NCBI GenBank assembly: GCA_951406725.2
Contig: OX597816.1
Span: 161,572,001 to 161,636,000 of the forward strand
Source: Octopus vulgaris
Lineage: Eukaryota
Length of the DNA: 64,000 nt
Direction of reading: 5' to 3'
The notes under the pieces were generated by a model. That model did not search any database. It saw only the letters and a list, made by a program, of their open reading frames with translations, and was not told the origin of the DNA. Below are positions 1-64,000 of this stretch, in pieces. Every line of letters starts with the position of its first letter. Position 1 is the first letter of the stretch. The translations under genes and the position numbers were made by a program.

Positions 1-192
1 GTTTACATGTGTTATAGTGTTCAGTTTGTTAAATGTAGACATGGTTATGTCATTTGAATGCAGTTATATATGCAGGATGAGTATTTGTGTGTGTATGACA
101 CAGAGTTATAAAATATACATCTGTAATACATATAGGTATGTGTGTACTATGTAGATAGATATATTTTTCATTATATATACATACATGGTAAT

Positions 193-836
193 GGTGTCAC
201 ATAAAAAGCACTGGTGCTGGTGCCACATAAAAAGCACTGGTGCTGGTGCCACATAAAAAGCACTGGAGCTAGTTCCACATAAAAGCACTGGTGCTAGTGT
301 CACATAAAAAGCACTGGTGCTGGTGCCACATAAAAAGCACTGGTGCTGGTGCCACATAAAAAGCACTGGTGCTGGTGCCACATAAAAAGCACTGGAGCTA
401 GTTCCACATAAAAGCACTGGTGCTAGTGTCACATAAAAAGCACTGGTGTTGGTGTCACATAAAAAGCACTGGTGTTGGTGTCACATAAAAAGCACTGGTG
501 TTGGTGTCACATAAAAAGCACTGGTGCTAGTGTCACATAAAAAGCACTGGTGCTAGTGTCACACAAAAAGCACTGGTGCTGGTGCCACACAAAAAGCACT
601 GGTGCTAGTGTCACATAAAAAGCACTGGTGCTAGTGTCACACAAAAAGCACTGGTGCCGGTGTCACATAAAAAGCACTGGTGCCGGTGTCACATAAAAAG
701 CACTGGTGTTGGTGTCACATAAAAAGCACTGGTGCTAGTGTCACACAAAAAGCACTGGTGCTGGTGTCACATAAAAAAGTACTGGATCTGGTTCCACATA
801 AAAAGCACTGGTGCTAGTGCCACATAAAGGCACTGG
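193..836 (+). repeat. 26-bp minisatellite, ~25 copies (GGTGYCACATAAAAAGCACTGGTGCT)
   Basis: Direct tandem units with period 26; the variant GAGCTAGTTCC recurs 129 bp apart; the unit matches the head of family C elements (5804, 44445). Confidence 0.95.
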
Positions 837-3681: not shown

Positions 3682-5803
3682 TATTATTATTGTTGTTCTT
3701 GACTTGTAAGAGATGACGTGTACTAATTCTGTTTCATCCTGAAAGAATTGTTGATAATTTCAGGAATGCTGTCAATTATTGTGCCTCAGAAAATAAATAA
3801 ATAACTAAATATTTTGCTTTCGCATAAGCATAATTACATTAAAATGTCTGTCACAACTGTCATAAGATGATTAATTGCACGTAATAAATGTACAAATTGT
3901 ACACTGAACAATACAAGAAATGAAAATTAAATTATTATTACCACCAGGTAATAATAGTCATCATCATCATCATCATCTAGTGTTTTAAATCCTGGTTTTG
4001 TCCCCGTTAACAGGGAATGCCGGGATCTACCTCACTGCCATAGCAACTGAAGTAGGCAAGTGCAGTCCACCCCAACCTTTGGGCTGGCTGGTGCCCATTC
4101 TCCCTTGCTATCATGAGGCTTTTTTGGAGCTGGATTTTCTAAGGGGAGTATGCTCTTGCTTACCCCCAGCCTCGGTTTCAAGACATGAGTGGTCCCGAGA
4201 CCAAGGCCTCTACCACAATTTTTAAGAAATGTGGTGGAAAACTAGCTCAGGAAGGCAGAGATGGTACTCCTTGAGACCACTTTCAGAGTCCTCACCTACA
4301 TTCTCTGCCTTACATCCAATATTCTGCAAGAATATGCCTGGCTATGGGGTAATATTACCTTGTTTGGAAACCCAACACATACAAGCATGGAAAAGTGAAC
4401 TTTAAAAATGATGATTAGAGACAGGCTGAAAATGACAACTGATGATTATATAGTTTTTATTATTTTACTGGTTTAAGGTGGCAAGCTTGCAGAATTAATA
4501 GTATGCTAGTCAAAATGCTTAGTGCATTTCTCAATAATAATTATAACAACAATCACGAAGGCCAGATATTTGGGGCAAGGAAGTATAGTCAATAACATCA
4601 ACTCTAGTACTTGACTGGTACTTTCTTGTATTAATCCTGGATAAGTTTCAAATAGTTAAAATGCACTGTTTTTTTTTCCTTTTTTTAAACTTCATTTGTC
4701 CTCTATAATCATATCTGGTCCCTTTGCTTCTTCAGTATTACATTTAGTCTTTATGGGGAAGTCCCATAAAATCCTGTAATTTTTATTCACCATTGCAGAC
4801 TCTTTGTTCCTGTTCATTATAGTGATATTATAATCGTAATGATCTTGATGATGGTTAAAAATTAGACTTAATAGTTCTTTTTTATATTTTTCTATTTAGA
4901 AATTTACTTCCCATTGAAGTTAGCATTTAAAATAATGTTACTACTATTTTGAAGAGGAAAATAACAGCATTGTTGTTCCCATTGTTTGCAAATAGTTTAA
5001 ATGTAGATGTATGTGTATGTGTTTGCTTATGTTTATGTCTTTGAAGTAAACAATCAGCTTGCAAGTTTCTCTACTTTGCCTCTCTAATTTAATTTTAAAC
5101 TTAACTCTGCTCCAATAACACAGTGTAAATAGAGTCTTGAGTTTTTATATATGAACCAATTCTCGTTAAATCTTTTGATGTTGTTACTCATAGCACATTT
5201 GGTAATATAATTATCTTCCTTGATATAATTCTTGGAAGTAATTAGGGTATAAAATAGTTAACTGAATCTGGCAAACTATCCACAGTTTAACACCATTTAA
5301 ATTCATTTCCTGTAAATATTATTGAGAAGTTTTAGGGGGCAGTGCTCATGAAGACATATGTACAAGAAGTTCTTGGTTCATGTTATATAATTTAATGTTA
5401 CTGTGATCCTAAAAAAGAGAGTGTATATAGTATGAAAGAAGATAAAAATAACATTAACATACATTTCATGCAAAATTTTATACCCATGTATATATATCTG
5501 CTAGTCTTCTTTTTCTAACCAGATATATGGTTAAAAAAATGTATACACATAATAAAGACTGTTCTCAGGAATTATTTTATACTGTTTCTTTGAATGAACA
5601 AAAGTTTTAAGTTCAAACCATTCCAGGATCTCAGTTTACCTCTAGAATCAAAATAACAAACTGAATCGCTTCATTGGATTGTATTTTATGTCACTCTCCT
5701 CACAACACTAACACACACATATATAGGAAATATGCTTAGCCTTGAATTCAGGTCATTATGTCTACAATTTTATATTCAGTTGTATTGTATGTATGTAAAA
5801 TGC

Positions 5804-5995
5804 ACTGGTGCTGGTGCCACATAAAGATCACTCAGTACACTTTGTAAAGTGGAAAGTGTTAGGAATGGCATCCAGTCTTAGAAATCAAGCCAAAAACAGA
5901 TACAGAAGTCTGGTGCAGGCTCCTGCCTGGCCAGCTCCTGTTGAACTGTCCAACTCATGCCAGCATGGAAAATGGATGTTAAATGATGATGGTGG
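5804..5995 (+). mobile_element. Family C retroposon
   Basis: TTAGGAATGGCATCCAG and CATGCCAGCATGGAAAATGGATGTTAAATGATGAT tail. Confidence 0.7.
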
Positions 5996-7591
5996 TAACT
6001 GTATATATATAGTATGTTGCTATTTTTAGTGATCTTGGTATCCTTTTATTATAAACTGAAATGATTAATGTTTAATGTTGGGGTAACCAGCAAATGTTGT
6101 AGAGTAGGAAATAATAAGTTGGGATAACTGATGAATTCTGAAAGTAGGAAATATATTAGTGATGGTTAATGTTGTACAGTAGAAGATATGTAGGGGAAAC
6201 TGGTAGGAGATGCAGGATAGATGATAGAAGATTTGTTGGGATAATTAGCAAGGGATGGGTTGGGACTGTATTGGGGTAAATGGTGAGTGTCATATGGTTG
6301 GAAATATGTTGGGGATATTGGTGAGAAAGGGACAGTTGGAAATGAGCTTCTGGTTAGTTTTGATTTCTTGTAGAAGCTACTGTATTTATCCCTATAATAT
6401 TTTTGGAAAGTGCAAGAACATGGCAACATCTCATTTTCCTGTCAAATAAATGTGGGCTCTTGCATCTTAGAAAAGAAGCCAAATTTTAAAATGTGGATGC
6501 GTGCACACACACACAAACACACACTCACACTCACTCACACACATGTTAATGTCATAATTCTCCCAAAAGGATTTTATATATGTATATATATAGGCACAGA
6601 TACACACACACACAAACACACACACTCACACTCACTCACACACACGCCACACACACACGTTAATGTCATAATTCTCCCAAAAGGATTTTATATGTGTGTG
6701 TATATATATATATATATATAGGCACAGATATGGCTGTGTGGTGAGAAGTCTGCTACCCAATCACATGGTTTCGGGTTCAGCCTCACTGCATGGCTCCTTC
6801 AAAGTGAACACACCGACACCAGTTGTCAAACGGTGGTGGACACACACACACACACATATATGTACGTATGTATGAAATATGAATGTAACTTTCTTGTCTG
6901 AACCAACTCAAATTACTGAAAAAAATCTGAGTAAAGATGCTTAAATGATGAAAAAAAATGAAAAAAACAACAAAAAAACCCCCCAGAAAAATCTATTTCC
7001 TTTCTATTAATCCTATCTGAACTACTTTGTCCTTCTGCAAACAGATTGATTTCATTTTGTATTTGTTTCCTAAATGTTATTATTACAACTACTAAAACAA
7101 ATTCATGTGCTCTGTTCCAGAGATTAAACATTCTTCATATGTAATTATTCTGCAATCAAACTGTCATTTATACAGTATTAGCCAGAGCAGTATACCATCA
7201 AGAAGCTAAACCTAACACTCTGATGCCTTCGTCTTTCTTGTTTTCTACACTATTACAATCAGTATCTAACTTGAACCGTATCTTTCTCCTTTGTGGATTA
7301 GACCCATCTTCTATACAAATTAATCACAGAAATAAGTGGTTAGTTCAGTTCAGTTCCATCTTCATCTCTTTTATCACCAACGTAGTGCTTCCTTTTACCC
7401 ATGATCTTTCAAAGTCATAGAGTTACAATATTCTCCCTGCTTCCCAAAGTTTTCGTGCTATATTATGAAACCTTTAGCTTAGAAAAATTCCCTTTTGTCA
7501 AAAACAAATTTTCAAGTAGTAGCAACTGTTTTGACATTACTTTTGACTTTGGTGTCTATTACTGAATTTTGTGTTTACAAGTGCACAGGGT

Positions 7592-7631
<40 letters not shown>

Positions 7632-7699
7632 CCTGTACGCAAACTGTGTACTGTGTGTGTGTGTAGGTGCACTCACATGCAATGTGTCAATATGTGTAT

Positions 7700-7860
7700 G
7701 TGGCATGGCTGTGTTCTGAAGAAACTTGCTTCCCAACCATGTGGTCTTAGGTTCAGTTCCACTGCACAGCATCCTGAACAGGTATCTTCTACTATAGCTC
7801 TGTGCTAACCAAAGCATTGTGAGTAGATTTGGTAAATAGAAACTGAAAGAAGCCTTACAC
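7700..7860 (+). mobile_element. Family B SINE, 5' half
   Basis: GGCATGGCTGTG..CTTGCTTCCCAACCATGTGG..GGTTCAG head; matches 28978-29384. Confidence 0.75.
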
Positions 7861-7863
7861 ACA

Positions 7864-7899
<36 letters not shown>

Positions 7900-7900
<1 letters not shown>

Positions 7901-8216
7901 GCATTCCATTGGTCATGACGATGAGGGTTCCAGTTGATCCGATCAACAGAGCAACCAGCTCATGAAATTAACATGGAAGTGGTTGAGCACTCCACAAACA
8001 GGCACAGAGACCCTTAATGTAGTTCTCAGGGAGATTCAGCATGACACAGAATGTGACAAGGCTGGCCCTTTAAAATACAGGTACAATTCATTTCTACCAT
8101 CTGAATGAGCTGGAGCAATGTGAAATAAAGTGTCCTCAAGGGCGCAGTGTGCTGTCAGGGATTGAACTCAAAACCTTATGATTGTGAGCCAAATACGTTC
8201 ACCACTATGCCATGCA
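7900..8216 (-). mobile_element. Family D tRNA-derived SINE
   Basis: Minus-strand tRNA-like head (GGTGCATGGCATAGTGG...GAGTTCAATCCC); body shared with 22860-23142 and 47800-47905. Confidence 0.75.
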
Positions 8217-8425
8217 CCTACACTAAATACACACACTCACATATACACGCACACACTCACATATACACAATACATACACACTCCCATATACACATGCACT
8301 CACATATTCACACACACTCACATATACAAACACACTTGCACACACACATGCGCGCACACACAAATGCATATAATCTTAGTCTTGCACTATAACTCCATTC
8401 ACATCTAGTATTCCTTATAGGAGTC

Positions 8426-8822
8426 TTCTTTTCTACTCTAGGCACAAGGCCCGGAATTTTGGGGTGGGAGGACAGACGATTAGATTGACTCCAGTACGCA
8501 ACTGGTACTTAATTTTATCAGCCCCGAAAGGATGAAAGGCAAAGTTGACCTCAGACTGTAAAGTAGGTCGAAATACTGCTCACCGTTTCACCTGTGCGTG
8601 CTAACTTTTCTGCCAGCTCACCACCTTATCCTTTCTACTATAGACACAAAACCTGAAATTTGGGGGAAGGGGATGAGTTGATTACATCGACCCCACTGCA
8701 TAACTAGTACTTAATTTATCAACTCTGTAAGGATGCAAAGCAAAGTTGACCCCAGCGGCAATTGAATTCAGACCGTGAAGACAGAGGAAATACCACTAAA
8801 TGATTCACCCAGTGTGCTAACA
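8426..8822 (-). mobile_element. Two tandem family A SINEs
   Basis: Two consecutive reverse copies, each containing GTACTTAATTT..GGATG.AAG.CAAAGTTGACC. Confidence 0.8.
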
Positions 8823-11800
8823 ATTCAGCCAGCTCGCTGCCTTTCCTTATAGGAATATTAAATCTCCATCAGTACTTGACTGGACTTCAATGAATGTTGA
8901 CCTCAGCAGTATATGAACTCTACATTAAAAGTTTGTAGCTAAACACTGCTAGTATTTCAGCCTGTTCTGATGCCTTTAGAATATTTTTCACTTTAAAATT
9001 TAACTATGCTTTATCAGATAAACTTTCCTGATATCTTCCACTTGTTACATTCATCTACAGCTGTATGCATTTTATTTGTATACTAACATGATACTATAGT
9101 ACCTGTCAAAAATGATTGGGTTTGTTTCCTTTTAGTAATTCTTGATTATTCTCCATTTTGATTATTCTCATTTTCATTCAGTTATTGTCATTAACTTACA
9201 TGTTTCATTATTTCTTCTCTTCTCCGTCTATATCCATATTTCCGTAATCTTTTTCTCTTAACTAAAATCTAATCTACTCCTTTTCTCTTCAATCCTTATC
9301 ATTCCCCATCTGTTCCTCACTAATATGACACAACTTTTCCCTCTCCTGCTCCCTCTCCCTCCCTCTCTATCATTCTCATTTTCTATGCCTCTTGTATTTT
9401 ATCACAGCACCTCTCTAATTCTCTCTATTGCACAGAGAAAGCAAGAGAGAAATTAGAGAAGGACTCACACAGACGCTTCCTCCCACACTCTTTCTCCCAT
9501 TCCTGCCTATAATTCACTGTCTGCTTCACATGACTGTGCATCACACAGACTGCCGACTATTGATGGCGTCTCTCTCTCTCTCTCACTCTCTCCCCCCTCC
9601 CCCATCAAGGTCCCACAACTCTTTGTAATACTTTCTTTATATCATTTTCCACCTCTCTCATCATGGCTACTGCTTACTTTTTCCAGCATGTCAGAAACAC
9701 GGAAGCCAACCTACATAAATAACCTGACATGTATGGCTTAGCATTTTATACATTAAGATGAAAAAAACAAAAAAAAAAACAAAAAAAAAACATTCATATT
9801 GCCACATTCTGACACTGCAGCTGAAACCATTTACATTTTTCTCATCCTTTTGTCTCTTTCAAATGTGTTCAACTTGAAAGAAATATATATAAAAGGGGAA
9901 AAAATCCTACATTAAGAAATATAAAAAATAGAATGTTTTTTCAACAGATGTTCTCATAGTCTAAGCAATTGTTATAAAACACTTCAAAATTACAAGACTA
10001 ATGACTCCAAGGCAATCAAATCAGGTTTAACATTCCAATTGAAAATAGAATGAATCATATCGTTATGTTGAACTATTAAACTCTTTCACACTGATTTCTC
10101 TCTACTCCACCCCACCTTTTCTCGCTATTAATTATGGTTATTCATTTATTTAATCAACTCCGGAATATTTCTCTCTTGACTCAAACACTTGAAACTATAA
10201 GAATTTAAGGTTTCAATTTGGAAAAGTAAACAAATAAAACTGATGGTAATATATAAATAAAAAATAGAAAATATTAAAAAAAACACACACACACACAAAG
10301 AAATAACATGCTTGCTTCTGTTAGGGTCAGTCTTACAGAAAACAACCTACCTTGGCTGAAGTTAGATGGTCCATCTGCATTGTTGGCACCATTTTTGCTG
10401 TGTGTAATATTTTTTTCCTGAGTTATTTTTTTGTTCAGTTGTAGCAATTTTAAAATCAAATCTTTGTATATAAGTGTAATGGATGAAAGTAGAGGTTGGG
10501 TGCCCTAGAAAATTTGCGTCAATGAATTCCATGGACATTAAAACCATGATGCTGATGATGATTGTCATCGTCATCATCGTGGTGGTGGTAACTTTTGGGT
10601 GTGTAATGCTTCTGATAAATTTAAGAGAAATGTAGGTTAAAAATAAGCTAATTGAATTAACTTTTGTGCTAGAAATCAATTCTTTGATGTTTTAATCTTT
10701 ATAATCTTTTGAACTTTATTTCCACATTTTCACAACATAGTTTGTGACCTATTTTCCAGATTAGGAGGATGCCAAATCATTTCTACTTATGCTGGAAGGA
10801 ACAAGGATATAAAGAATCTAAGAAACCCCATATTCTATATCATTGATTTATGATGCAGTGATTGATCATAGCTTTAATTGATTGATTGATTGATCATATC
10901 TTTAATTTTTATTACATCTTCTTTGATATGATAGAAAGTCAAAATGGAGCAATATTTCTTATGAGTTTAGTCAAATATAAAGTACAAGAAGATAACATCT
11001 GTGTCCCTAAATAAATCTCCTAAAAGGTTCTTAAGCAACATCAGTTTTTTGGTGTTTATATGGGATATCTGATAGAGGTTACTATCAATAGAAGGGCCCT
11101 CAGATATCCTGTGCTCTGTGATTCTCTATGGAATTTGAACAAAAAAAGAAAGCATGATAATTTATATATTTTCATTTTCAAATTGCAAAGACTCAAATTA
11201 ATTTTCATTCAGTTGCTTTTATTCCATCTGAAATTCTAATGAAAATCTTTGGATTTTATTCTAACCAATCAAATTTTGAGTCATGAGTAAAGGCTTATCA
11301 CCAACTTTTTACATGCCACAGGTATGAGAGCTAGTCAGGTTGTACTGGCATTGACCACTCTTATATGGCGCTTTTTACATGCCACCAGCATGGGAGCCAG
11401 TCAAGCGGCACTGGCCATCCAACCCATGCCAGCATGGAAAGCGGATGTTAAATGATGATGACGATGATATATATTCTGAAGTAAGAATATGTCTTGTACG
11501 TACACCTCCTTGGGGAACAGTACTGTATTGCTTACATTGGACTTGATCATGTATTAATCATAACCTCGATATATCAGTTTGTCTATCTGTCTTTCTTTCT
11601 TTCCTTTAACTTTGTTTCATCACCACACCATAAGCTGTGTTCGTCTGTTCCCCTTTTCATTTGTGTGAATTCTTTAGTCTTGTGAGTGCTCTAAAAAAGC
11701 ACCCAATAAACTCCGTAAAGTGGTTGGCAAATCATATAGCAACAACACAGAGAGGACTTTTTAGTCTTGTCAAGAGCAAGACAACCTCTATAGTGCTGGT

Positions 11801-11964
11801 GCCATGAAAATATGCTTGCTGTATACTCTGTAAAGTAGTTAGTGTTAAGAAGAGCATCTGCCTGTAGAAACCATAGTAAAACTGGAATCTTGGAGCAAGA
11901 TGTTGTTTTCTTACCCATTGGAAACTGTTGACCGATCCAACCCTTGCCAAGCCAAGTATATGCA

Positions 11965-12320
11965 TGGGCATGTGGTTAATAGGTTTGCATGGCAACTGTC
12001 TGGTTTTGAGTTCAGTCCTATTACACAGCAAGTTCCTTCTATTAAAATTCTGGGCCAACAATTGCATTGTGTGGGAATTTGGTTGACAGAAACTGTAGAA
12101 CCCTGTCATATGTGTGTATTTATGTCTTTGTGTTTGTTCTGCCCCTTCCTCCCCTTGACAACAGGTGTTGGTTTGTTTATATCCTTGTAATGTGGTAGTT
12201 TGGTAAAAGAGACTGATAAAATGATTATTAGACTTAAAAAATAATTGCTGGACTGTCAACTAAAACCTTCATGGCAATGCCCCAGTATGGCCACTGTCCA
12301 GTAACTGAAACAAGTAAAAA
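11965..12320 (+). mobile_element. Family B SINE, diverged full length
   Basis: Collinear with 28978-29384, ending ACTGAAACAAGTAAAA. Confidence 0.7.
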
Positions 12321-12499
12321 AAAATATTGGACGAGGGAGAGAGATTTATTCTTAAATATTTCTGAGCATCCATTTGTCAACTTCCTTCATACAATTCTAG
12401 TTTTACCTTACAGCATGGAATAATCTCATAAAAATGGATATCTTGTGACATGTCATACTTCTTTCCTATAACTTGGACTGGAAATAGACATAACTGGTT

Positions 12500-12503
12500 G
12501 CAC

Positions 12504-12545
<42 letters not shown>

Positions 12546-12745
12546 TCTCTCTCTCTCTCTCTCTCTCTCTCATACATGCACACACACGTGTGTGTGCTCA
12601 CATACATGCACACATGCGTGCACACATACATACACACAGACTCACTCACACACATATGCACATACACACATACATGCACGCACACACAAATATGCACATG
12701 CATTGAAAAATGCACACACACTCACACATACACACACACACACAT
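12500..12745. repeat. Compound (CA)n/(CT)n microsatellite
   Basis: Directly visible. Confidence 0.9.
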
Positions 12746-13210
12746 GCATTGGAAAATTGACAGAGTTGTTAAGAGTATCAGCTTTGTCTTGCAGTATCCC
12801 CCCCCCTCTCTCACTCTGTGCTCTCAGTTCAAATCTTAATCTTTTAACCTTTCAGGAATAAAGTAACCAGTCTAGAGTGTTGGACTAGAAGAATTATCAG
12901 TGCATTAGACAAGACACTAGACAAAATCTGTTCCGGTTATTTGCATTCTGAGTTCAGTTCCCACCTAGGTGTCTATGGTCAGGGCCTCCTGCAGCTGACC
13001 AGTTCAGACACAAAAAACCAGCATTGATTGATGACTTTTGGTATTTAACTCTTCTTCAGTGACACAGCACCACATAAGACTGCACCAGTCAGCTAGTCCT
13101 GAAACAAACAATATCACAAGAATTATTCTAATTTTATTGACATTCATTTCTCTATTGCTTATTTCTGTTCTGTTATGGAATCCTGACAAAACAGAATCTT
13201 TGACTTAGAC

Positions 13211-13537
13211 CAGGGCTGGCCAACCTAAGGCCCGTGGTGCACATTCGGCCCGCAGACTTTTATCTTGCGACTCGCTTGATACTTTCTTGAAGTATTTTGT
13301 TTAATTTCAAAATAAGACTTTATGTAAAATATTTGTTTCAAAATAAATTTAAAATTTGTAAGTGGCAATAAAGCAAAGGCCTATGATTTTATAATTTTAA
13401 ACAAACGAAAAGTTTGAAAAATTCTTGACTCTGTAATTTAATTGTTTGACTGTTAGTGCATAAAGTATACAAGTGGTCCTCGAAAAACTTTCTCCGATTA
13501 AAGTGGCCCACAATGTAATTTGAGTTGGCCAGGCCCG
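13211..13537. mobile_element. hAT-type MITE
   Basis: TIRs CAGGGCTGGCCAAC ... GTTGGCCAGGCCCG; 8-bp TSD ACTTAGAC / ATTTAGAC. Confidence 0.8.
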
Positions 13538-13849
13538 ATTTAGACAATTTTTAATCGGATGCTGGTGTCATGAAGAAGTACCCAGTACACTCTGTAAAGT
13601 GACTGGTGCTACAAAGGGCATCTAACTGAAGAAACCCTGCCAGAGCAGACATTGGTGCATGATGCAGTCCCCTGTCTCCTCAGATCCTGTCAGAGCATCC
13701 AACACCTGCACAGCATGGAAGCTGAATGTTAAATGAGGATCATGTTAAGAATTAATATTATTTCTTTGGCCAAAAGTCGCTGAGATCGACTTTGCCTTTC
13801 ATCCTTTTGGGGTCGATAAATTAAGTACCAGTTGTGTACTGGGGTCGAT

Positions 13850-14016
13850 CTAACTGACTTATTCTTTGTAAGTCCAGCACCTATTCCATCGGCCTCATTT
13901 GCAGAATGCCAAGTTATGGGGATGCAAACACACCTAAATCGGTTGTCTAGCGATGGTGGGGAGAGACAAACAGACACACAAACACATACATACACATACA
14001 CACACACACACAGACA

Positions 14017-14050
<34 letters not shown>

Positions 14051-14207
14051 TGACAGGCTTCTTTCAGTTTCCATCTACAAAATCTATTCACAAGGCTTTG
14101 GTCAGCCTGAGGCTATAGTAGAAGACATTTGCTCGAGGTGCCACACAGTGGGACTGAACCCGGGACCATGTGGTTGGTAAGCAAGCTACATACCACACAC
14201 CAACTCC
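13850..14207 (-). mobile_element. Family B SINE with internal (CA)n
   Basis: Reverse complement of the 28978-29384 consensus. Confidence 0.8.
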
Positions 14208-14647
14208 TTTTTACTTATAAATATGAACTTGAAATATTTTGCAAGGTGACTATATGTTCAATGTCTACAACTTACAGAATTAACTCATAGGCATAACTTA
14301 GTAGATAGCAATGGTTTATTGGTTATTAGTTGACCTGTTAAGATCAACTTTACTTTTCATCTTTCTGGAGTTGATAAAATAAATACCAGTCAAATATCAT
14401 ATTCGATTTGATCAACTGGCTTATCCCTCCCTTTCCACCAAATTTCTGGCCGTGTACCAATGTAAAAAGATATTTTTAGTTGAAACTGCTCACCTCATTG
14501 ACAATGGTTTAATGATTTCAAATCAACACAGAATCATAGTTTTTCTGAATTAAGTCTTGTTGGAGAAGGAAGTTGTGAATACATAAAAATACTACTTAAT
14601 TTAAAAAAATTGAAAATACTGACAATATAGATAACATTTCAAATACT

Positions 14648-14939
14648 ATTATTATATGTTTGACTTTTGCTTTGTATTTGTTCAAGTTGACTCCAAGTCT
14701 CACCCAGAGACCTCAAGAGACAACAAGTTAGAAGTTCATGTTGGTGCTATGCCAAGGGTGCCATATATTTGGTTTTGCACATAGTATTGTTCTAGAGAAT
14801 GTTTAAGAAAACATAAGAAAGTTACGAGTTTGTTTTAAAATTTGAGATTGCATAGACAGTATTTTACATAGGATATACATACCATTTTGGGGTTTCCTGA
14901 TGTCTGAGTTAGGTAGGAATCAGCCCCTTTTGCTGCTAT

Positions 14940-14940
<1 letters not shown>
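14648..14940 (-). mobile_element. 3' end of R4/Dong-like LINE
   Basis: Minus strand encodes IAAKGADSYLTQTSGNPKM..ILCKILSM, resembling the RLE-clade C-terminus; 3' UTR contains GAGGTCTCTGGGTGAGAC; flanked by (ACT)n and ATT repeats. Confidence 0.55.
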
Positions 14941-14989
<49 letters not shown>

Positions 14990-14998
14990 TTTTATATA

Positions 14999-15180
14999 GT
15001 GGCACGTAAAAAGCAGCCACTACACTCACAGAGTGGTTGGCGTTAGGAAGGGCATCCAGCCATAGAAACACTGCCAAATCTGACTGGGCCTGATGAAGCC
15101 TTCCGGCTTCACAGACCCCAGTTAAACCGTCCAACCCATGCTAGCATGGAAAACGGACGCTAAATGATGATGATGATGAT
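14999..15180 (+). mobile_element. Family C retroposon
   Basis: GTGGCACGTAAAAGCA..GAGTGGTTGGCGTTAGGAAGGGCATCCAGC..(GAT)n tail. Confidence 0.85.
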
Positions 15181-15869
15181 ATATATGTAATAGAGAAAGA
15201 TAGTCGAATAGACATCAAAATACTCTAAGAGCGTTGGTGCTCAATTATATTTCCTTTGGTTTACCTAAAGATTCTTTACATAAGGTAAGATCTATAGAAT
15301 TACAAATTGATTCGTAAATAAGTGTGTATACTAACAGACTGGATCACAGTCTGTAGAAAAGATTTCTGACATGTTGCCTCGTATCAGAAATAAATAAAAT
15401 CTTACTTTTGTATTAAAGTCAAAAGCTTTTGGGTTTCAAATTGTTTCCAAAATGTCTCACTTTTGTCTTCTCTTCCATTAGCGTTCATGAAGAAAAAGAA
15501 AAACACAAAGAATGAAAAGCAGGAATACATGTGTGTGATCGTGTATATGTTTGTTATATGCAAACATACTTATATATCTGTGTTTGAAAGAAAAATTATG
15601 ATTTCTTGATTACCTTGTTCTGTTCTATATTTACTTTATAATTTAGTACACTTATCTTCTCCTTGTGCATGTATGACAGACTATTTAATCTGAGATTATT
15701 TGTTGAAACTAAAACTGGCTGCAGGTACAGACGTGGCTGTGTGGTAAGAAGTTTGCTTCACAACCATATGGTTCTCGGTTCAGTCCCACTGGATGGCACT
15801 TTGGGCAAGTATCTTCTACAACAGCCTTGGGCTGTTAGAGAGAAACTGAAAGAAGCACACCATGTATAA

Positions 15870-15915
<46 letters not shown>

Positions 15916-16040
15916 TTAGGGATAATCACACATGTATTGAAATTTTTTCTGATTTTTCAGATTTTTTAGATATGCTAGGCTACTGGTTTTAAATTGATAT
16001 TAATTAAATTAATATTCAATTTATCTCCCTCATTATTGAA

Positions 16041-30257: not shown

Positions 30258-31884
30258 ATAGAAGACAGGAAAAATGAAGTAGCTGTTACCAGTGTTCAGA
30301 AAAGTTTACAGATGATTTCCTATTTTAACACCAATTGTTAGTTTTGTTTTCGTTTTTGTGTTTTGTTTGTGTGTTTGTGTGTGTTTGCTTTAACAGTAGA
30401 AATTGTCAATGTCAGAAAATTGTCTGAATGACAATCGAGTTGGATTTTCAAGTATTTAATTCTGTTTGGTGTGATATTTTTTTTTTCTTCTTTTACTTCA
30501 TTTAAGCGATATCTATTCAATTTTGGCAAGTGTAGAAATGTTTAAATTCATTTCACTGATTCACTAACTTCAATTCTAAATATGCATAAACTCAATTTAG
30601 CTGAAATAATAGAAACAGAATTAAGAAGACACTAAATGTTTTTCTTTTTCCTTTTTCATGTACACACACACATGCACACACAACTATATATCTCACAAAT
30701 TGTTGCTTAACCCTAGGTTAGTCCTGATTAAGTAGACAGTATGGTAATATACAAAAAGTGGGTTAAGTGAAATATAAGCGAAAGAACTTTTACATGTTTT
30801 AGAAATTAATTTTCTCTCTTCTTAATAATGAAAATCTTACAGTTTGGTAAATGGATTATTGTATCACAGATCCACTGACTGGAATAATACATTTGTCTTG
30901 GGGTCTATCTCTAATTGAAAGAAGCTGCTTTCATCATCATTATCATCATTGTCATTGCCGTCATCATCTTCATCATTGTAATCATCATCATTATCATCAT
31001 CATCATCATCATCATTTCTTTTAATGTCCACTTTTCCATGCTTGCAAGAGTCAGATTGAATTCATGGAGACAGACTTTCTGCAACCGGATGGATGCCCTT
31101 CCAGTTACCAACCTTCATTTGTTTCCAAGAAAGAGTAATAATATTTCCCTATGGTTAGATATGTTTCTATGGAAGATTGGAAACAAATGACACTACTTGT
31201 ACAACAGTGACACTCATTTACAACTATTATTACATCTTTTTAATAATGATAATTCACATTTATAAAATCTCACCAATTTCAGTAGCTAAAACAAAAACTA
31301 TGGGAAGGTCTTCAACACGTTATTTTATTCGTGAGTTTATTTTAGCTCCTTGAATATTTTTGACTTTGTGTCATTTGTTTTTATGTCCATTTTTCCTTGT
31401 TAGCATGTGATAAATGAATGTTATTGAGGTATTGCCTGTATTTCAATTTAGGGATCCTTTATTCACATAGCTTCAAAGGCACCGAGTGAGTGGTTGATTT
31501 ATTGGCAAGAGATGTTCCAAGTAGAACACTGTCGTATAAGCAGGTAAAAATGTAAATAATACACTTATATACAAGTGCATGTGCACACACACACATTCAC
31601 ATGCATACATTTATATGTGTGTATGATAGGCTTTTTCTGTTTCCATCCTACCAAATTGACTCACAAGACATTTGTTGGTTCAGGGGCTCGTTTAAGGTGT
31701 TATGCAGTAGGACTGAACTCCAGACCACATAACTGCAGTGCCAAGCCACTTACTAAATTAAAAGATGAGAATAAAGAGGAAGAAGTATTTAGTAAACTGT
31801 AAATTTATTTAATGCAACAAGGACCATCTGTAGAATGAATCTTGTAGGTTTGTTGTTGAGTTCTTGGAATTTATGCATGTCACC

Positions 31885-32211
31885 TGACTGGTCCCATGCC
31901 AGTGGCACATAAACAGCACCATTCCAGCATGTTTGTTGCCAGTGTCGCCTGACTGGCTCCCATGCTGGTGGCATGTAAAAAGCATTATCCAAGCATGGTC
32001 GATGCCAGTACTGCTTGACTGGCTCTTGTGCCAGTGGCATGTAAAAAGCACCCGCTACACTCTCATAGTGGTTGGTGTTAGGAGGAGCATCCAGCTGTAG
32101 AAACTTTGCCAGATCGGATTGGAGCCTGGTGCAGCCATCTGGCTTGCCAGCCCTCAATCAAACCATCCAACCCATGCCAGCATGGAAAGCAGGCGTTAAA
32201 TGACGATGATG
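31885..32211 (+). mobile_element. Family C retroposon with three head units
   Basis: Tandem GACTGGYTCC..GTGGCA..AAAAGCA units followed by the RTE-like body. Confidence 0.8.
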
Positions 32212-32306
32212 AAACTCAAAATTTGACTTGTTTCTTCACAGTATTCCAATTTCGTTTCAAATACTTCCGCTTACAAAGGTTTCTTTAGCCAAATCAACTG
32301 CATTAA

Positions 32307-35977: not shown

Positions 35978-36894
35978 AATTTTTTTTTTTTGTTAAATTG
36001 TTTAGAGTTTCCAGATGTTTCTAAAAAGTATTTTGTTGAAAAAAAGTTATTTGATTGAGTAGGAATAAGAAGAATGGGAAAGTTTGAAAAAAAAAAAAAA
36101 TTGTTTTTTTTTCTTACATACATTATTAGAATGAAATATTTTTTATGAGAAAAATGTATTACAAATGTATGAGTGGTAAATACTAAGGAATATCTTAATG
36201 CATTCATAATGTGTGTAATGTATATTAGTTAAACCCCCCCACACACACACACATTTAAACCTCTCTCTCTCTCTTTTGTCTTTATCGTTTACTTGGTTCA
36301 GTCATTAGACTGTGGCCATGCTGTTATGTTATAGGAATGTAAACCATACCGATACCAGTTGTCATCAAGCAGTGGTGGGAGACACACAGACACACAAAAT
36401 ATGAAAGAAAATGGAATTCACAACACTCTTTGTTATTCACTACGATTGTTTCGACCCTTTGTGCATTGTTGCTTCCAGGCCAGTTGTGGGGCATCATAGA
36501 TGCAGATGTTTCTCATCCGGTGACTTGTCAAAAGGCACCTAAGATTTTAATCCCCGATTTGCTTATTTGGATTAGAATACATTTTGGTAGTCATAGTTCG
36601 CTACACATCTACACAAGAAGTTTTATATACATCAGTGGTTCCCAAAGTGGGCAGTGCTGCCTCCCTGGGGGTGGTGGAAAGATCTAGTGGGGGTGTTGAA
36701 GGGAAGTGGGATGATAATGGGGTGGCTGTGTGGTAAGTCGCTTGCTTACCAACCACATGGTTCCAGGTTCAATGCTACTTTTGTTTATAAGTTCCAGGAG
36801 GACATCTCCTCCAGCTGGTTAACGACACACTGTATGTGTCCAATTAGTATTTCCAAAGGGAAATCATCATTCCCATCTCTAGCCTTACATGAAA

Positions 36895-36939
36895 CACACG
36901 GACTCAGGTTTCTGGATAGCAACCCATCATCAGCGTGTG
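36895..36939 (-). ncRNA. Type I hammerhead ribozyme
   Basis: Minus strand CACACG-CUGAUGA-UGGG(UUGCUA)UCCA-GAAA-C(CUGA)G-UC-CGUGUG: perfect 6-bp stem I, intact core, GUC cleavage triplet. Confidence 0.85.
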
Positions 36940-37185
36940 ACAATCACCAGCTAGCAATGCAAACTCATTCCAAACGCAAAATACTATATGCATTTCCAGT
37001 TACAAACTGTCACTGATCAAACTGTCCGCCACATTTAGGTGGCAAATATACTTCACGGTTCCATGCTGCTCAGAGATTTATTATTTCTTGTTTCTCCTTT
37101 TTCGAAATCAGCGACAGTTTGTCACTGGTAAAAGCATAAAGCATTTTGTGTTTGGAATGAGTTTTCATCCCTAGCCAGTGATTGT

Positions 37186-37230
37186 CACATGCTGATGATG
37201 GGGTACTACTCAGAAACCCAGGTCTGTGTG
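37186..37230 (+). ncRNA. Type I hammerhead ribozyme
   Basis: CACAUG-CUGAUGA-UGGG(GUACUA)CUCA-GAAA-CC(CA)GG-UC-UGUGUG: intact core, stems kept through GU wobbles, predicted cleavage after C37224. Confidence 0.82.
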
Positions 37231-38189
37231 TATCGCATAAGGCTAGAGATGACAACGATGATTTCCCTTCGCAAATACTAATCGGACACAGACAGTGTGT
37301 CATTAGCCAGCTGGAGGAGATGTCCTCCTGGGGCTATAGCCAACAGTAGCATCACCCTCTATGGGTCTGCCACGTTTTGGTGGCAAATATCTTAATCTTA
37401 AATGTATATTATTAATTCAAGTCCCCCCCCCCACACACTTAAATGCCTTTCTTTCTCTTTTTTCAATGAATTCAACATCTTCATTGATAAAAGGAATTTA
37501 GAATTTAGGCTGTTTGCTGAGTGAGAAACACAATTCGACCCAATACTCACAATTCTAATCTGATGATTAGCACAATGATACTTCTAGCTACGAGAATATT
37601 ATCTGTAAGATTTCCTTTCCTTCAAGTTGAGAAAGAGAGAGAGAGAGAGACAGAGACAGAGTGACAGAGAAGGAGGTGGTGGGGGAGTTGTATTCATAAT
37701 TTAGGCATTGTTTCTTCTCCATGAAGGTCACTAAAATAACCCATTCTTCATGACTAAGAAAACTTTACAAACGCAAAAAGAGAGGAAGAATGATTCTTTG
37801 TTTATTGGTTGGTCGTAGGTCATAAGACTAACCTAAAATGAATGCTATGAGAAGGGTGGGAGTGGGTGGGTGGTTGGGTGGGGTGGGGGAGTTTCAGTAA
37901 ATGTTTTGGTTGTGGTTTAGTTATAGTAAGCAGAATGCTGGGATACAAGAAACTTAAGTGCTGAGTTGAACGCTGGGATACGATGATAAAATAAATAACA
38001 GAGTGCTTTATGTATTGTCAGTGCCAGTAAGCTAGTGGAATTCTAATGACAATATATTAACTATTCATCTATTTACTATAAAGAGCACTTAATAAATTTA
38101 TTTTTAATTTATATATATATATTAGCTATTAGTGACAGATACATACATACATACATACATACACACATACATACATACATATGCATTCA

Positions 38190-44279: not shown

Positions 44280-44672
44280 CCCTTCAGCATTTAAACCATC
44301 CATATCCAGCCCAAATATTCTTCCTGTTTTATATTAAAACCTGCCAGATCTGACCTCTCACACCTACCCTACAATGCCATTCTAAAACTAAACAATCACA
44401 TCAAAATCTTGAAGCTGCAAGATAAAGCATGATTGTGCTCGTTCCACATAAAAAGCACTGGTGATGGTGCCACATAAGAAGCATCCAGTACACCCTGTAA
44501 AGTGGTTAGTGTTTGGAAGGGCATCCAGCTGTAAAAACCAAGCGAAAACAGTCCATGGCACCTGGTGTGGCCCCTTGCCTCGCCAGCTCAGAAAATGGAC
44601 GTTAACTGATGATGATGTTGAATGTGAAAAAATAAGCGTTACCTTTTGCAGAGTAATCTGAATGCTAAAGGG
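44280..44672. mobile_element. piggyBac-like MITE (second family) with nested family C insertion (~44435-44618)
   Basis: TTAA-CCCTTCAGCATT ... AATGCTAAAGGG-TTAA. Confidence 0.75.
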
Positions 44673-53808: not shown

Positions 53809-54172
53809 CATCATCATCATCGTTTAACGTCCGCTTTCCATGGGTTGGACAATTTGACTGAGGTCTGGCGAACCAGATGGCTGCATTAGACTCCAATCTG
53901 ATCTGGCTGAGTTTCTACTGCTGGATACCCTTCCTAACGCCAACCACTCTGAGAGTGTAGTGGGTGCTTTTATGTGCCACTGGCATGAGGGCCAGTCAGG
54001 CAGTACTGGCAACGGCCACGCTCAAATGGTGCTTTTTATGTGCCACCTGCACAAGAGCCAGTGCAGCGGCACTGGCAACGACCTTGCTCAAATGTTTTTT
54101 TACACGTGCCACCAGCACAAATGCTAGTAACACAGGTAACGATCATGCTCAAATGGTGTGTTTAATGTGCCA
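53809..54172 (-). mobile_element. Family C retroposon with tandem head units
   Basis: Reverse complement of the 19958-20227 type; faces a + copy at 53490-53720. Confidence 0.85.
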
Positions 54173-54199
54173 TCAGTTGCTGTGGAACATTATTACTCA

Positions 54200-57735: not shown

Positions 57736-58169
57736 ATGGCTAAAGCTGGCCAATACACCTTAAAGGAGAAGATACAAGAAGAATTTTTGGAATGTAAAAT
57801 TTGTTTTGAACCTTATGTGAAACCCAAAGCCCTTCCTTGCTTGCATTCATTTTGTGCAGAATGCCTAAAGGATTATGTTCGAAAAAATCCTGACAAAAAC
57901 GCTATGCGTTTTTGCTGTCCAATTTGCCGGAAGGAGATACCAATGCCACCTAGAGGCATTGATGACTTCCAAGACAATTTCTGGCTTCTTAGCCTCTCTA
58001 ATTCTTTGGAAGAAGGCGAAGATGAATGCCGCACTTCTTGCAATGGGAAAAATGCACGTAGTAATGTGTGGACAACTCAAAAATGGAACCACCAAGCAAA
58101 AAATGTAACTACAGCATCAAACCCATTGTATCCACCCTCATTCCAAGAACTAAAACTCCGTGGATTTGA
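57736..58169 (+). CDS. First coding exon of a RING-HC E3 ubiquitin ligase (TRIM2/TRIM3/TRIM56-like or RING-NHL type); CDS continues beyond the phase-2 donor
   Basis: C3HC4 RING: FLECKICFEPYVKPKALPCLHSFCAECL...CPICR followed by TRIM-like GIDDFQDNFWL; acceptor T10CAG ends 57724; donor GA|GTAAGT after 58169, so the ORF stop at 58173 is intronic. Confidence 0.92.
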
Positions 58170-58281
58170 GTAAGTTGTTCATAATTTTTTTTTATTTGAT
58201 GTTAAGAAACCATTGTTGTGGTGGTCGTCACATTTGCTTTACTTCCTTATAGCTTTGATAAAACTGAATAGCACAAGAGTA

Positions 58282-63066: not shown

Positions 63067-63103
63067 TTAGTACAATTATTGAATCAAAGTTGTTTCTTAT
63101 TAA

Positions 63104-63828
63104 CACTTTTGTTTCCGTATTTACTTTGAAATGCTCTGTGTTTCTTTCAATTAATTTTAAATATAACAAAGAATTTAGTAAAATAACTTAGTTATCATTA
63201 AGCTAGTGTTAGGAACATAAATTGTGACTAAGGGTTGGTAGAAAATTTTAATTCAAAACTTATGAAACAAGACATTTGTACTGCAGTGCCAGAAGTGGTT
63301 TCAGCTGGGTTGGTATCAAAAGGGTTAAGAATTGTTTCTCTATTATATATTTTAACCCCTTTGTTACCATATTTCTATTGAGATGCTCTATGTTTCTTTC
63401 AATTAATTTTAAATATAAGAAAGAATTTAGTAAAATAACTTAGTTATCATCAAGCTAGTATTAGGAACATAAATCGTGACTAAGGTTTGGTGGAAGATTT
63501 TAATCCAGAACTTTTGAAAACAAGCCATTTGTACTACAGAGCCAGAGACGATTTCAGCCAGGTTGGTACCAGAAGGGTTAAATTAATCCTTTGTTAAATT
63601 AATCATTTGTTGACCCTTTTGTTACCATATTTCTGTTGAGATGCTCTCTGTTTTTTTTTTCCAGTTAATTTTAAATATAACAGAATTTAGTAAAATAACT
63701 TAGTTATCATCAAGCTAGTGTTAGGAACATAAATTGTGACTAAGGTACGGTGGAAGATTTTTTTTATGAAACAAGACATTTGTACTACAGAGCCAGAGGT
63801 GGTTTCAGCCAGGCTGGTATCAAAAGGG
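63104..63828. mobile_element. Three same-orientation piggyBac-like MITEs (63104-63324, 63356-63577, 63614-63828)
   Basis: Each ~220 bp with C(C/A)C..TTGTT.CC / GGTA..A.AAGGG ends; the first two flanked by TTAA, the third by TTGA on both sides. Confidence 0.88.
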
Positions 63829-64000
63829 TTGAAGGAGGGTAGGGATACAGAGGAGAGATAATTTCAAACCAAATTATGTTTTGGGCTCAAGGCCAGCAAG
63901 TTCAGGTGAGAGGTAAGTCGATTCTGTCAACCTCAGTGCTTGAGTGGTACTCAACATTTTGCCTGATGTGTTAACAATTTGCCAGCTCACTGCTGTGTAG

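What the first reader, a model, noticed from the sequence alone, without database searches (positions are those of the whole stretch)
36895..37230. Two intact-core type I hammerhead ribozymes, one on each strand
Seen: the minus-strand copy 36939-36895 and plus-strand copy 37186-37230 both have CUGAUGA, GAAA, a GUC cleavage triplet, 6-bp stem I and 4-bp stem II. Although the arms differ at many positions, all core nucleotides are identical and stem changes remain pairable (GU). The implied ancestral stem III is the palindrome ACCCGGGU, typical of dimer-active metazoan hammerheads (established for Penelope-like elements and retrozymes). Inference: a self-cleaving RNA module that could cut transcripts from either strand; best candidate for an undescribed system in this window.
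Basis: partly seen in the sequence, partly recalled or inferred. Interest (0 to 1): 0.8.

Follow-up and report, generated by a model that had tools for sequence, protein, structure and literature searches.

The report
Decayed octopus hammerhead retrozyme insertion
Two hammerhead-ribozyme sequences lie back to back because a short octopus repeat of about 350 bases is present here twice, once upside down and shortened; this is most likely one ageing insertion of a known kind of self-cleaving jumping RNA (a retrozyme), not a device for cutting RNA from both strands.

Summary
Both hammerheads are there as described, but they are two copies of one repeat: an inverted 246-nt piece (36772-37017) joined head to head to a forward copy of 341 nt plus 26 nt of terminal redundancy (37024-37390); arms 84% identical. 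The host is Octopus. Contigs of three organisms show a large family whose sequence closes on itself with a period near 341-358 nt, and other inversions at other breakpoints. The fold is canonical type I. This fits an animal non-LTR retrozyme inserted with a Penelope-type inverted head; hammerhead pairs 100-700 bp apart on opposite strands are already in print (PMC4209133). The identical cores are within chance (P 0.08-0.24); both copies are predicted to fold worse than intact controls, and a read-through RNA would pair the arms and block both. No report of this family in octopus was found. The scan had not seen this sequence but noted similar architectures in other genomes. Cleavage, expression and true multimers are untested.

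The parts
36772..37017 (-). Inverted, 5'-shortened copy of the repeat unit (equivalent to 37107-37352)
   Evidence: 83.8% identical over 247 columns to the right arm
36895..36939 (-). Type I hammerhead motif, left copy; predicted cut between 36901 and 36900
   Evidence: one G-U wobble in helix II; hammerhead fold 12.1 kcal/mol above the ensemble
37018..37023 (.). 6-nt linker at the head-to-head junction; 37018-37026 repeats 37003-37011 exactly (9 nt), a likely template-switch footprint
   Evidence: sequence printed; interpretation inferred
37024..37364 (+). One full repeat unit, 341 nt, 44.6% G+C, no coding capacity found; lacks about 17 nt at 37068-37070 that many other copies carry (family unit about 358 nt)
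   Evidence: loose ends at 37068 and 37070 table 7
37024..37049 (+). 26-nt segment with a small hairpin, first copy
   Evidence: direct repeat D3, 88% identical, period 341
37186..37230 (+). Type I hammerhead motif, right copy; predicted cut after 37224; U at +7 (37231) and A at the end of loop II fit the loop-loop contact
   Evidence: contact described in PMC11875169 passages; three G-U wobbles, fold 9.2 kcal/mol above the ensemble
37160..37256 (+). Rod-like extension of helix I around the ribozyme (also on the left copy)
37290..37340 (+). Hairpin segment shared with far more abundant sister repeats; holds the longest run identical between the arms (37307-37331)
   Evidence: summed contig depth 30-100 times that of the ribozyme part (table 2)
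37353..37390 (+). 38-nt extension present on the right arm only; ends with the second copy of the 26-nt segment (37365-37390)
36716..36771 (+). Head of an abundant dispersed repeat (SINE-like, label from recall) cut off at the end of the left arm
   Evidence: 11 other copies in the window at E below 0.01
37386..37464 (+). Right flank; direct repeat of 36189-36280, starting in the last 5 nt of the element; possible long target duplication
   Evidence: table 4

Best explanation
The two hammerheads belong to two copies, one forward and one inverted and shortened, of a roughly 350-base non-coding Octopus repeat, and the pair is most likely a single old, now decaying insertion of a non-LTR retrozyme written into the genome by a Penelope-like reverse transcriptase. 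Shown: the unit, its canonical type I ribozyme, its head-to-tail continuity across the family, the inverted head, the 26-nt terminal redundancy and the 38-nt one-sided extension. Inferred: in the active ancestor, multimeric transcripts were cut after the GUC, monomers were closed into circles, and reverse transcription of a circle (or of an uncut multimer) gave a cDNA longer than one unit: the forward copy is 367 nt and runs across the cleavage site, which a cut linear monomer could not template. A template switch then gave the inverted 5'-shortened head. Since insertion each arm has drifted on its own, about 0.06-0.09 substitutions per site (very roughly 15-25 million years on the published octopus calibration, if the arms began identical). 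The two copies here are probably weak or silent ribozymes.
For: Inverted repeat and 341-nt period. Family: 2812, 1885 and 2236 contigs laid from DNA-type runs of three organisms (many on the shared high-depth segments; 48-67 contigs per run carry the majority letter at loop-II position 37203); 7 of 15 joints shown (of 109) go back; 6 of 11 back-joints with letters give a period of 341-342, the other 5 give 317-335; loose ends before 37024 read as the end of the unit in 3 of 4 runs among 24 of 1001 rows shown. Inversions at other breakpoints: 4 clear and 2 probable of the 15 joints shown. Canonical geometry (6-bp helix I, 4-bp helix II, 2-bp helix III) as defined in PMC4209133, unlike minimal Penelope motifs. 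Unit length, G+C 44.6% and self-pairing (circular fold z -3.0, 0 of 100 shuffles as low) fit PMC7229834. Inverted 5'-truncated copy at the 5' end and a 30-40-bp one-sided tail are the Penelope insertion pattern (PMC8557442). No reverse transcriptase or GIY-YIG match in 130 open frames of 70 aa or more. Decay: 15 of 24 CpG-context columns differ against 23 of 221 others; each arm departs privately from the family majority; only 6 of 300 and 3 of 300 intact-helix controls fold as badly. Octopus vulgaris has 190 Penelope-like families, 6.83% of the genome.
Against: No piece shown carries two ribozymes, so true multimers are not shown; a closed cycle of neighbours also arises from many 'one unit plus overlap' insertions. 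977 loose ends, 94 joints and 192 variant rows were not shown, so a Penelope body attached to some copies is not excluded. The opposite strand of the unit also folds better than shuffles (z -2.5), so the fold score is not strand-specific. All 4 helix differences between the arms are C/U changes opposite G and keep pairing (about 1 in 16 if G-to-A were as likely), and both arms share U-A at 10.1-11.1: a weak hint of selection or of a U-A subfamily. CpG columns were defined from the two arms themselves, which inflates their rate. The one-sided tail may instead reflect later loss of the left end where it meets the SINE-like head. Inversion joints rest on one contig each, laid at 80% likeness. No partner element was identified.
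Confidence: 0.72

Rival explanations
1. The unit is the terminal repeat (pLTR) or a gutted derivative of an autonomous Penelope-like element; the locus is a truncated insertion of that element, and no circular RNA cycle is involved.
For: Opposite-strand hammerhead pairs 100-700 bp apart were linked to truncated Penelope-like elements; the inverted head and tail are Penelope traits; retrozymes are proposed to derive from pLTRs; Penelope-like elements are abundant in Octopus.
Against: The ribozyme is canonical, not the minimal type with 7-8-bp helix II found in metazoan pLTRs; the family sequence closes on itself at a near-constant period with no body in the cycle; the 24 loose ends shown read as variants of the unit; no RT or GIY-YIG match in the window.
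Confidence: 0.17
2. Two independent insertions of the same family, at different times, one beside the other in opposite orientation.
For: Arms differ at 38 of 245 columns; the region is crowded with repeats.
Against: Only one locus of this family in 64 kb; the arms meet head to head with a 6-nt linker that repeats nearby sequence; both share U at 10.1 where the family majority is C.
Confidence: 0.07
3. A domesticated or ambisense module that cuts transcripts from either strand, for instance upstream of the SRK2 kinase gene.
For: Both cores intact; 4 of 4 helix differences keep pairing; an SRK2 coding exon starts 20 kb downstream.
Against: Core identity within chance and the ribozyme less alike than the rest of the arms; predicted misfolding; a read-through RNA pairs each ribozyme with the other arm (-362 and -391 kcal/mol); the unit has no core on its opposite strand; inversion breakpoints vary in the family.
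Confidence: 0.04

Closest known systems
Animal non-LTR retrozymes (Cervera and de la Pena 2020, PMC7229834), especially the mussel Mytilus galloprovincialis family of 350-390 bp
   Same: Canonical type I hammerhead with 2-bp helix III, unit of about 341-358 nt, G+C below 50%, no coding frame, self-paired unit, head-to-tail continuity, mollusc host.
   Different: This locus is one unit plus an inverted partial copy, not a direct array; U-A (family majority C at 10.1) instead of G10.1-C11.1; cephalopod host not named in the text read; cleavage and circular RNA not tested.
Hammerheads in pLTRs of Penelope-like elements (Cervera and de la Pena 2014, PMC4209133) and Penelope insertion structure (Craig et al. 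2021, PMC8557442)
   Same: Two hammerheads on opposite strands within 100-700 bp; inverted 5'-truncated copy at the 5' end; 30-40-bp extension at one end.
   Different: Canonical rather than minimal ribozyme; no RT or GIY-YIG frame; the whole cycle is about 350 nt.
Retrozyme monomers derived from Penelope-like elements (Li, Clavereau and Pollet 2026, bioRxiv 10.64898/2026.07.22.740005)
   Same: Dispersed solo units beside multimers; proposed Penelope mobilisation; most tested genomic copies inactive (1 of 9 cleaved).
   Different: That study covers 31 vertebrates, 3 insects and a coral, has no mollusc, and argues from co-occurrence and pLTR similarity, not from insertion junctions. By its rule (two consecutive units with ribozymes) this locus is not an active retrozyme.
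Viroid-like circles with hammerheads in both polarities (Avsunviroidae; PMC5680766 passages)
   Same: Hammerheads on both strands within a few hundred bases.
   Different: There both ribozymes lie in one circle; here the unit has a ribozyme on one strand only and the second is a genomic inverted duplicate.

Membership tests
Canonical type I hammerhead | Core CUGANGA, GAAA and NUH triplet | tested here: met
   both copies
Canonical type I hammerhead | Helix I 6 bp, helix II 4 bp, helix III 1-2 bp with 2-4-nt loop | tested here: met
   all pairs standard, 3 and 1 G-U wobbles; definition
Canonical type I hammerhead | Loop I - loop II contact: U seven bases after the cut, A closing loop II | tested here: met
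   sequence signature only: U at 37231 and 36894, loops end in A; contact described
Canonical type I hammerhead | Highly conserved (not invariant) G10.1-C11.1 pair | tested here: not met
   U-A in both copies; family majority C at 10.1; a standard pair is kept, so this marks a variant
Canonical type I hammerhead | Site-specific self-cleavage | not testable with these tools
   needs in vitro transcription; folding controls predict impairment
Canonical type I hammerhead | Match to an Rfam hammerhead model | tested here: not met
   no match at gathering score or E up to 10; no positive control was run, so model coverage of short-helix-III forms is unknown
Animal non-LTR retrozyme | Unit of 150-450 bp, G+C below 50% | tested here: met
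   341 nt here, about 358 in the family; 44.6%
Animal non-LTR retrozyme | No protein-coding frame | tested here: met
   no Pfam match in the frames over the locus; none to RT or GIY-YIG among 130 frames
Animal non-LTR retrozyme | Multicopy family with head-to-tail continuity | tested here: met
Animal non-LTR retrozyme | Arrays with two or more complete ribozyme-bearing units | tested here: inconclusive
   absent at this locus; longest pieces shown cover under 250 nt
Animal non-LTR retrozyme | Highly self-paired unit | tested here: met
   64% paired, z -3.0, but opposite strand z -2.5
Animal non-LTR retrozyme | Target duplication longer than 4 bp | tested here: inconclusive
   an 80-92-nt direct repeat flanks the locus but also encloses 490 nt of other DNA
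Animal non-LTR retrozyme | Expressed as circular and linear monomer RNA | not testable with these tools
   no raw RNA reads were offered
Autonomous Penelope-like element / pLTR | RT and GIY-YIG frame next to the repeat | tested here: not met
   (frames of 70 aa or more, window only)
Autonomous Penelope-like element / pLTR | Minimal hammerhead (helix II 7-8 bp, helix I 4-5 bp, bulge at 5' of helix II) | tested here: not met
Autonomous Penelope-like element / pLTR | Inverted 5'-truncated copy at the 5' end, 30-40-bp extension at one end | tested here: met
   36772-37017 and 37353-37390; the extension has an alternative explanation
Ambisense viroid-like circle | Ribozymes in both polarities of one unit | tested here: not met
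   no exact CUGANGA on the minus strand of 37024-37390

The most novel reading that the evidence does not exclude
An undescribed, very large octopod retrozyme superfamily whose insertions record the mechanism directly: longer-than-unit cDNA read across the cleavage site from a circular RNA, with Penelope-type inverted heads and tails, and with a non-ribozyme hairpin (37290-37340) kept across sister subfamilies that would be the recognition signal for the Penelope enzyme. The 2020 review states that animal retrozymes show no conserved motif pointing to their partner, and the 2026 preprint links them to Penelope elements without junction evidence.
Probability: 0.3. Interest if true: 0.55.

Novelty: new member of a known kind. 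Interest (0 to 1): 0.27.

Why it matters
The locus itself is ordinary: a worn copy of a repeat. The family is of some use. It would extend non-LTR retrozymes to cephalopods, and its junctions (inverted head, more-than-unit length, varied breakpoints) can be counted genome-wide to test the open proposal that Penelope-like enzymes mobilise these RNAs. If the locus is transcribed, the 245-bp hairpin would be a double-stranded RNA, a likely editing substrate in octopus (inference), rather than a two-way cutter.

Tried and rejected
Rfam: nothing at gathering score in 64 kb; 4 weak unrelated matches at E up to 10. Own genome not held, so no copy count, tree, covariance model or covariation count could be made; two rows are too few. 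A 22-nt motif of the shared segment found 0 matches in metagenome and viral contigs. No RNA holder listed; run X10 is RNA by guess only, so its 97 contigs and one back-joint are not used as evidence of expression. Summed depth was not used as a copy number. Two 'opposite strand' joints (36838-37292, 36950-37093) were dropped as mere switches between the arms. Absolute folding energies of the hammerhead state were rejected as a test, since even intact controls lie 5-7 kcal/mol above the ensemble. Look-ups in earlier findings by sequence and by place gave nothing. Literature searches for a cephalopod report found none; 'ribozyme' is absent from the main text, and 'ribozyme', 'hammerhead' and 'retrozyme' from the one supplement, of the 2026 O. 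vulgaris repeat annotation. The supplement of PMC7229834 could not be read and may list cephalopods; Repbase, Dfam and the O. vulgaris repeat library were not searchable.

Full report
Observation. The two motifs are present as described. A pattern for the core finds 36901-36933 (minus) and 37192-37224 (plus), plus one unrelated match, against 0.63 expected. Both have helix I of 6 bp, helix II of 4 bp with a 6-nt loop, helix III of 2 bp with a 4-nt loop and C17 at 36901 and 37224. Both have U seven bases after the cut and A at the end of loop II, the signature of the loop-loop contact (PMC11875169 and PMC9217987, passages). Helix I extends into a rod of about 100 nt (z -3.25 and -2.57). Rfam did not recognise them; no positive control was run.

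They are two copies of one repeat. The motifs sit in an inverted repeat, 36772-37017 against 37107-37352, 83.8% identical over 247 columns, the only such locus in the window. A 26-nt segment occurs at 37024-37049 and 37365-37390, 341 nt apart. So the forward copy is one unit (37024-37364) plus 26 nt, and the left arm is an inverted copy that lacks the first 83 nt and the last 38 nt of the forward copy. The arms meet head to head through 6 nt; 37018-37026 repeats 37003-37011.

Host. An exon at 57736-58170 is 99% identical to Octopus sinensis SRK2. No RT or GIY-YIG domain was found in the 130 frames of 70 aa or more that passed a low-complexity filter. No genome was held.

The family. Twenty runs from 12 studies hold part of the stretch. 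Four were laid at 80% likeness: 2812, 1885, 2236 and 97 contigs, from three coded organisms. Of 15 joints shown (109 in all), 7 go back. Of the 11 back-joints with letters (12 of 63 rows shown), 6 give a period of 341-342 and 5 give 317-335. Loose ends before 37024 read as the end of the unit in X1 (23 records), X9 (19) and X10 (5); X3 has none among its 6 rows shown. Loose ends at 37068 and 37070 show about 17 nt that the window copy lacks, so the family unit is near 358 nt. The family sequence therefore closes on itself with no long body in the cycle. This does not prove multimers: no piece shown exceeds 250 nt. In unit coordinates four joints are inversions (36833-37294, 36925-37178, 36958-37073, 37179-37270), two probably are (37023-37298, 37024-37183) and two are only switches between arms; each clear one rests on one contig. 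The breakpoints differ from each other and from the window's.

Is the core under selection here? Not detectably. The arms differ at 38 of 245 columns; 13-15 core columns would all be identical with P 0.08-0.11, or 0.19-0.24 at the non-CpG rate. The 45-mers are 36 of 45 identical, and the longest identical run lies outside them. CpG-context columns differ at 15 of 24 against 23 of 221 (the definition uses the two arms and inflates the first figure). Where one search shows the majority letter, now one arm and now the other keeps it (left at 37139, 37142, 37149, 37190, 37203, 37235, 37253; right at 37165, 37169, 37205, 37209, 37232, 37272, 37291). No core position is among the 40 of 232 variant rows shown, which leaves core-versus-flank conservation among paralogues untested. 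Against my reading: all four helix differences between the arms are C/U opposite G and keep pairing, and both arms share U-A at 10.1-11.1 where 62-70% of X1 depth has C at 10.1. With core, loops and flanks fixed and helices I and II re-dealt as perfect pairs, the hammerhead state lies a median 4.8 and 6.8 kcal/mol above the ensemble; the window copies lie 9.2 and 12.1 above, matched by 6 of 300 and 3 of 300 controls. An RNA across both arms folds as one hairpin with each ribozyme paired to the other arm.

Mechanism. Shown: anatomy, family, junctions. Taken from the literature: animal non-LTR retrozymes are 170-400-nt units with type I hammerheads, cut from multimers, closed into circles and thought to be copied by Penelope-like enzymes (PMC7229834, parts 1-4 of 6 read, supplement unreadable; PMC7761336, passages and section 8); Penelope insertions often carry an inverted 5'-truncated copy at the 5' end and a 30-40-bp extension at one end (PMC8557442, passages and section 6). 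Inferred: the forward copy is 367 nt and spans the cleavage site, so its template was a circle or an uncut multimer; the inverted head came from a template switch in the same event; both arms then decayed. Jukes-Cantor distance between the arms is 0.11-0.17, or 0.06-0.09 each, very roughly 15-25 million years on the scale in PMC13282606 (part 1 of 3, passages and supplement search).

Comparison. It works like a non-LTR retrozyme and meets the sequence-level features; multimers, cleavage and circles are untested, so membership is likely, not proven. The G10.1-C11.1 pair is replaced. It is not a minimal Penelope hammerhead (PMC4209133, passages and section 5), but that paper already reports hammerhead pairs 100-700 bp apart on opposite strands and ties them to truncated elements, which removes the surprise of the two-strand layout. 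The 2026 preprint (parts 1-3 of 5 and passages; supplements not seen) describes solo monomers, derives retrozymes from pLTRs, found cleavage in 1 of 9 genomic dimers and has no mollusc. PMC6155905 and PMC5680766 were seen as passages. On dimers the papers differ: 2014 says weak palindromic helix III needs a dimer, 2020 says most invertebrate motifs cleave as monomers.

Novelty. Searches for hammerhead with octopus or cephalopod, retrozyme, and related terms gave no report of this family; subscription papers, repeat libraries and two sets of supplements were out of reach. Earlier notes of this scan describe like architectures in other genomes; they are unchecked leads and sharpened the pLTR rival. 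Verdict: new member of a known kind, interest 0.27.

Left open. Segments 37290-37340 and 37029-37052 carry far more contig depth than the ribozyme, and loose ends at 36794, 36829, 37287 and 37305 look like diverged sister units. A direct repeat, 36189-36280 against 37386-37464, is the best match among 2542 tiles (score 56 against 35 elsewhere), and an X1 contig over the right flank carries 13 extra letters that raise the likeness; it encloses the element and 490 nt of other DNA.

Noticed in passing
window 37290-37340 and 37029-37052: Summed contig depth up to about 500,000 and 290,000 in X1 against 4,000-16,000 over the ribozyme: segments shared with more abundant sister repeats; whether those carry hammerheads is unknown.
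   Followed up: partly
window 36189-36280 and 37386-37464: Direct repeat of about 80-92 nt flanking the element and 490 nt of SINE-like pieces and unknown DNA; long target duplication or older local duplication.
   Followed up: partly
window 57736-58170 (+): RING-finger exon 99% identical to Octopus sinensis SRK2; relatives in other molluscs join RING, SH2 and tyrosine-kinase domains.
   Followed up: partly
window 36633-36715: Begins with a sequence resembling a hAT-type terminal repeat (label from recall); no other copy in the window at E below 0.001.
   Followed up: no
window 192-836: Array of 24.9 copies of a 26-nt unit, 91% matches; related to the 16-nt array at 2337-2488 or the 66-nt arrays at 31878-32052 and 53963-54176 only by eye.
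   Followed up: no
window 63100-63830: 2.9 copies of a 252-nt unit, with dispersed relatives near 32300, 45050, 46950, 49010 and 56460.
   Followed up: no
window 44606-44640 (+): Third match to the loose hammerhead pattern, inside an ATG-type repeat; taken as chance.
   Followed up: no
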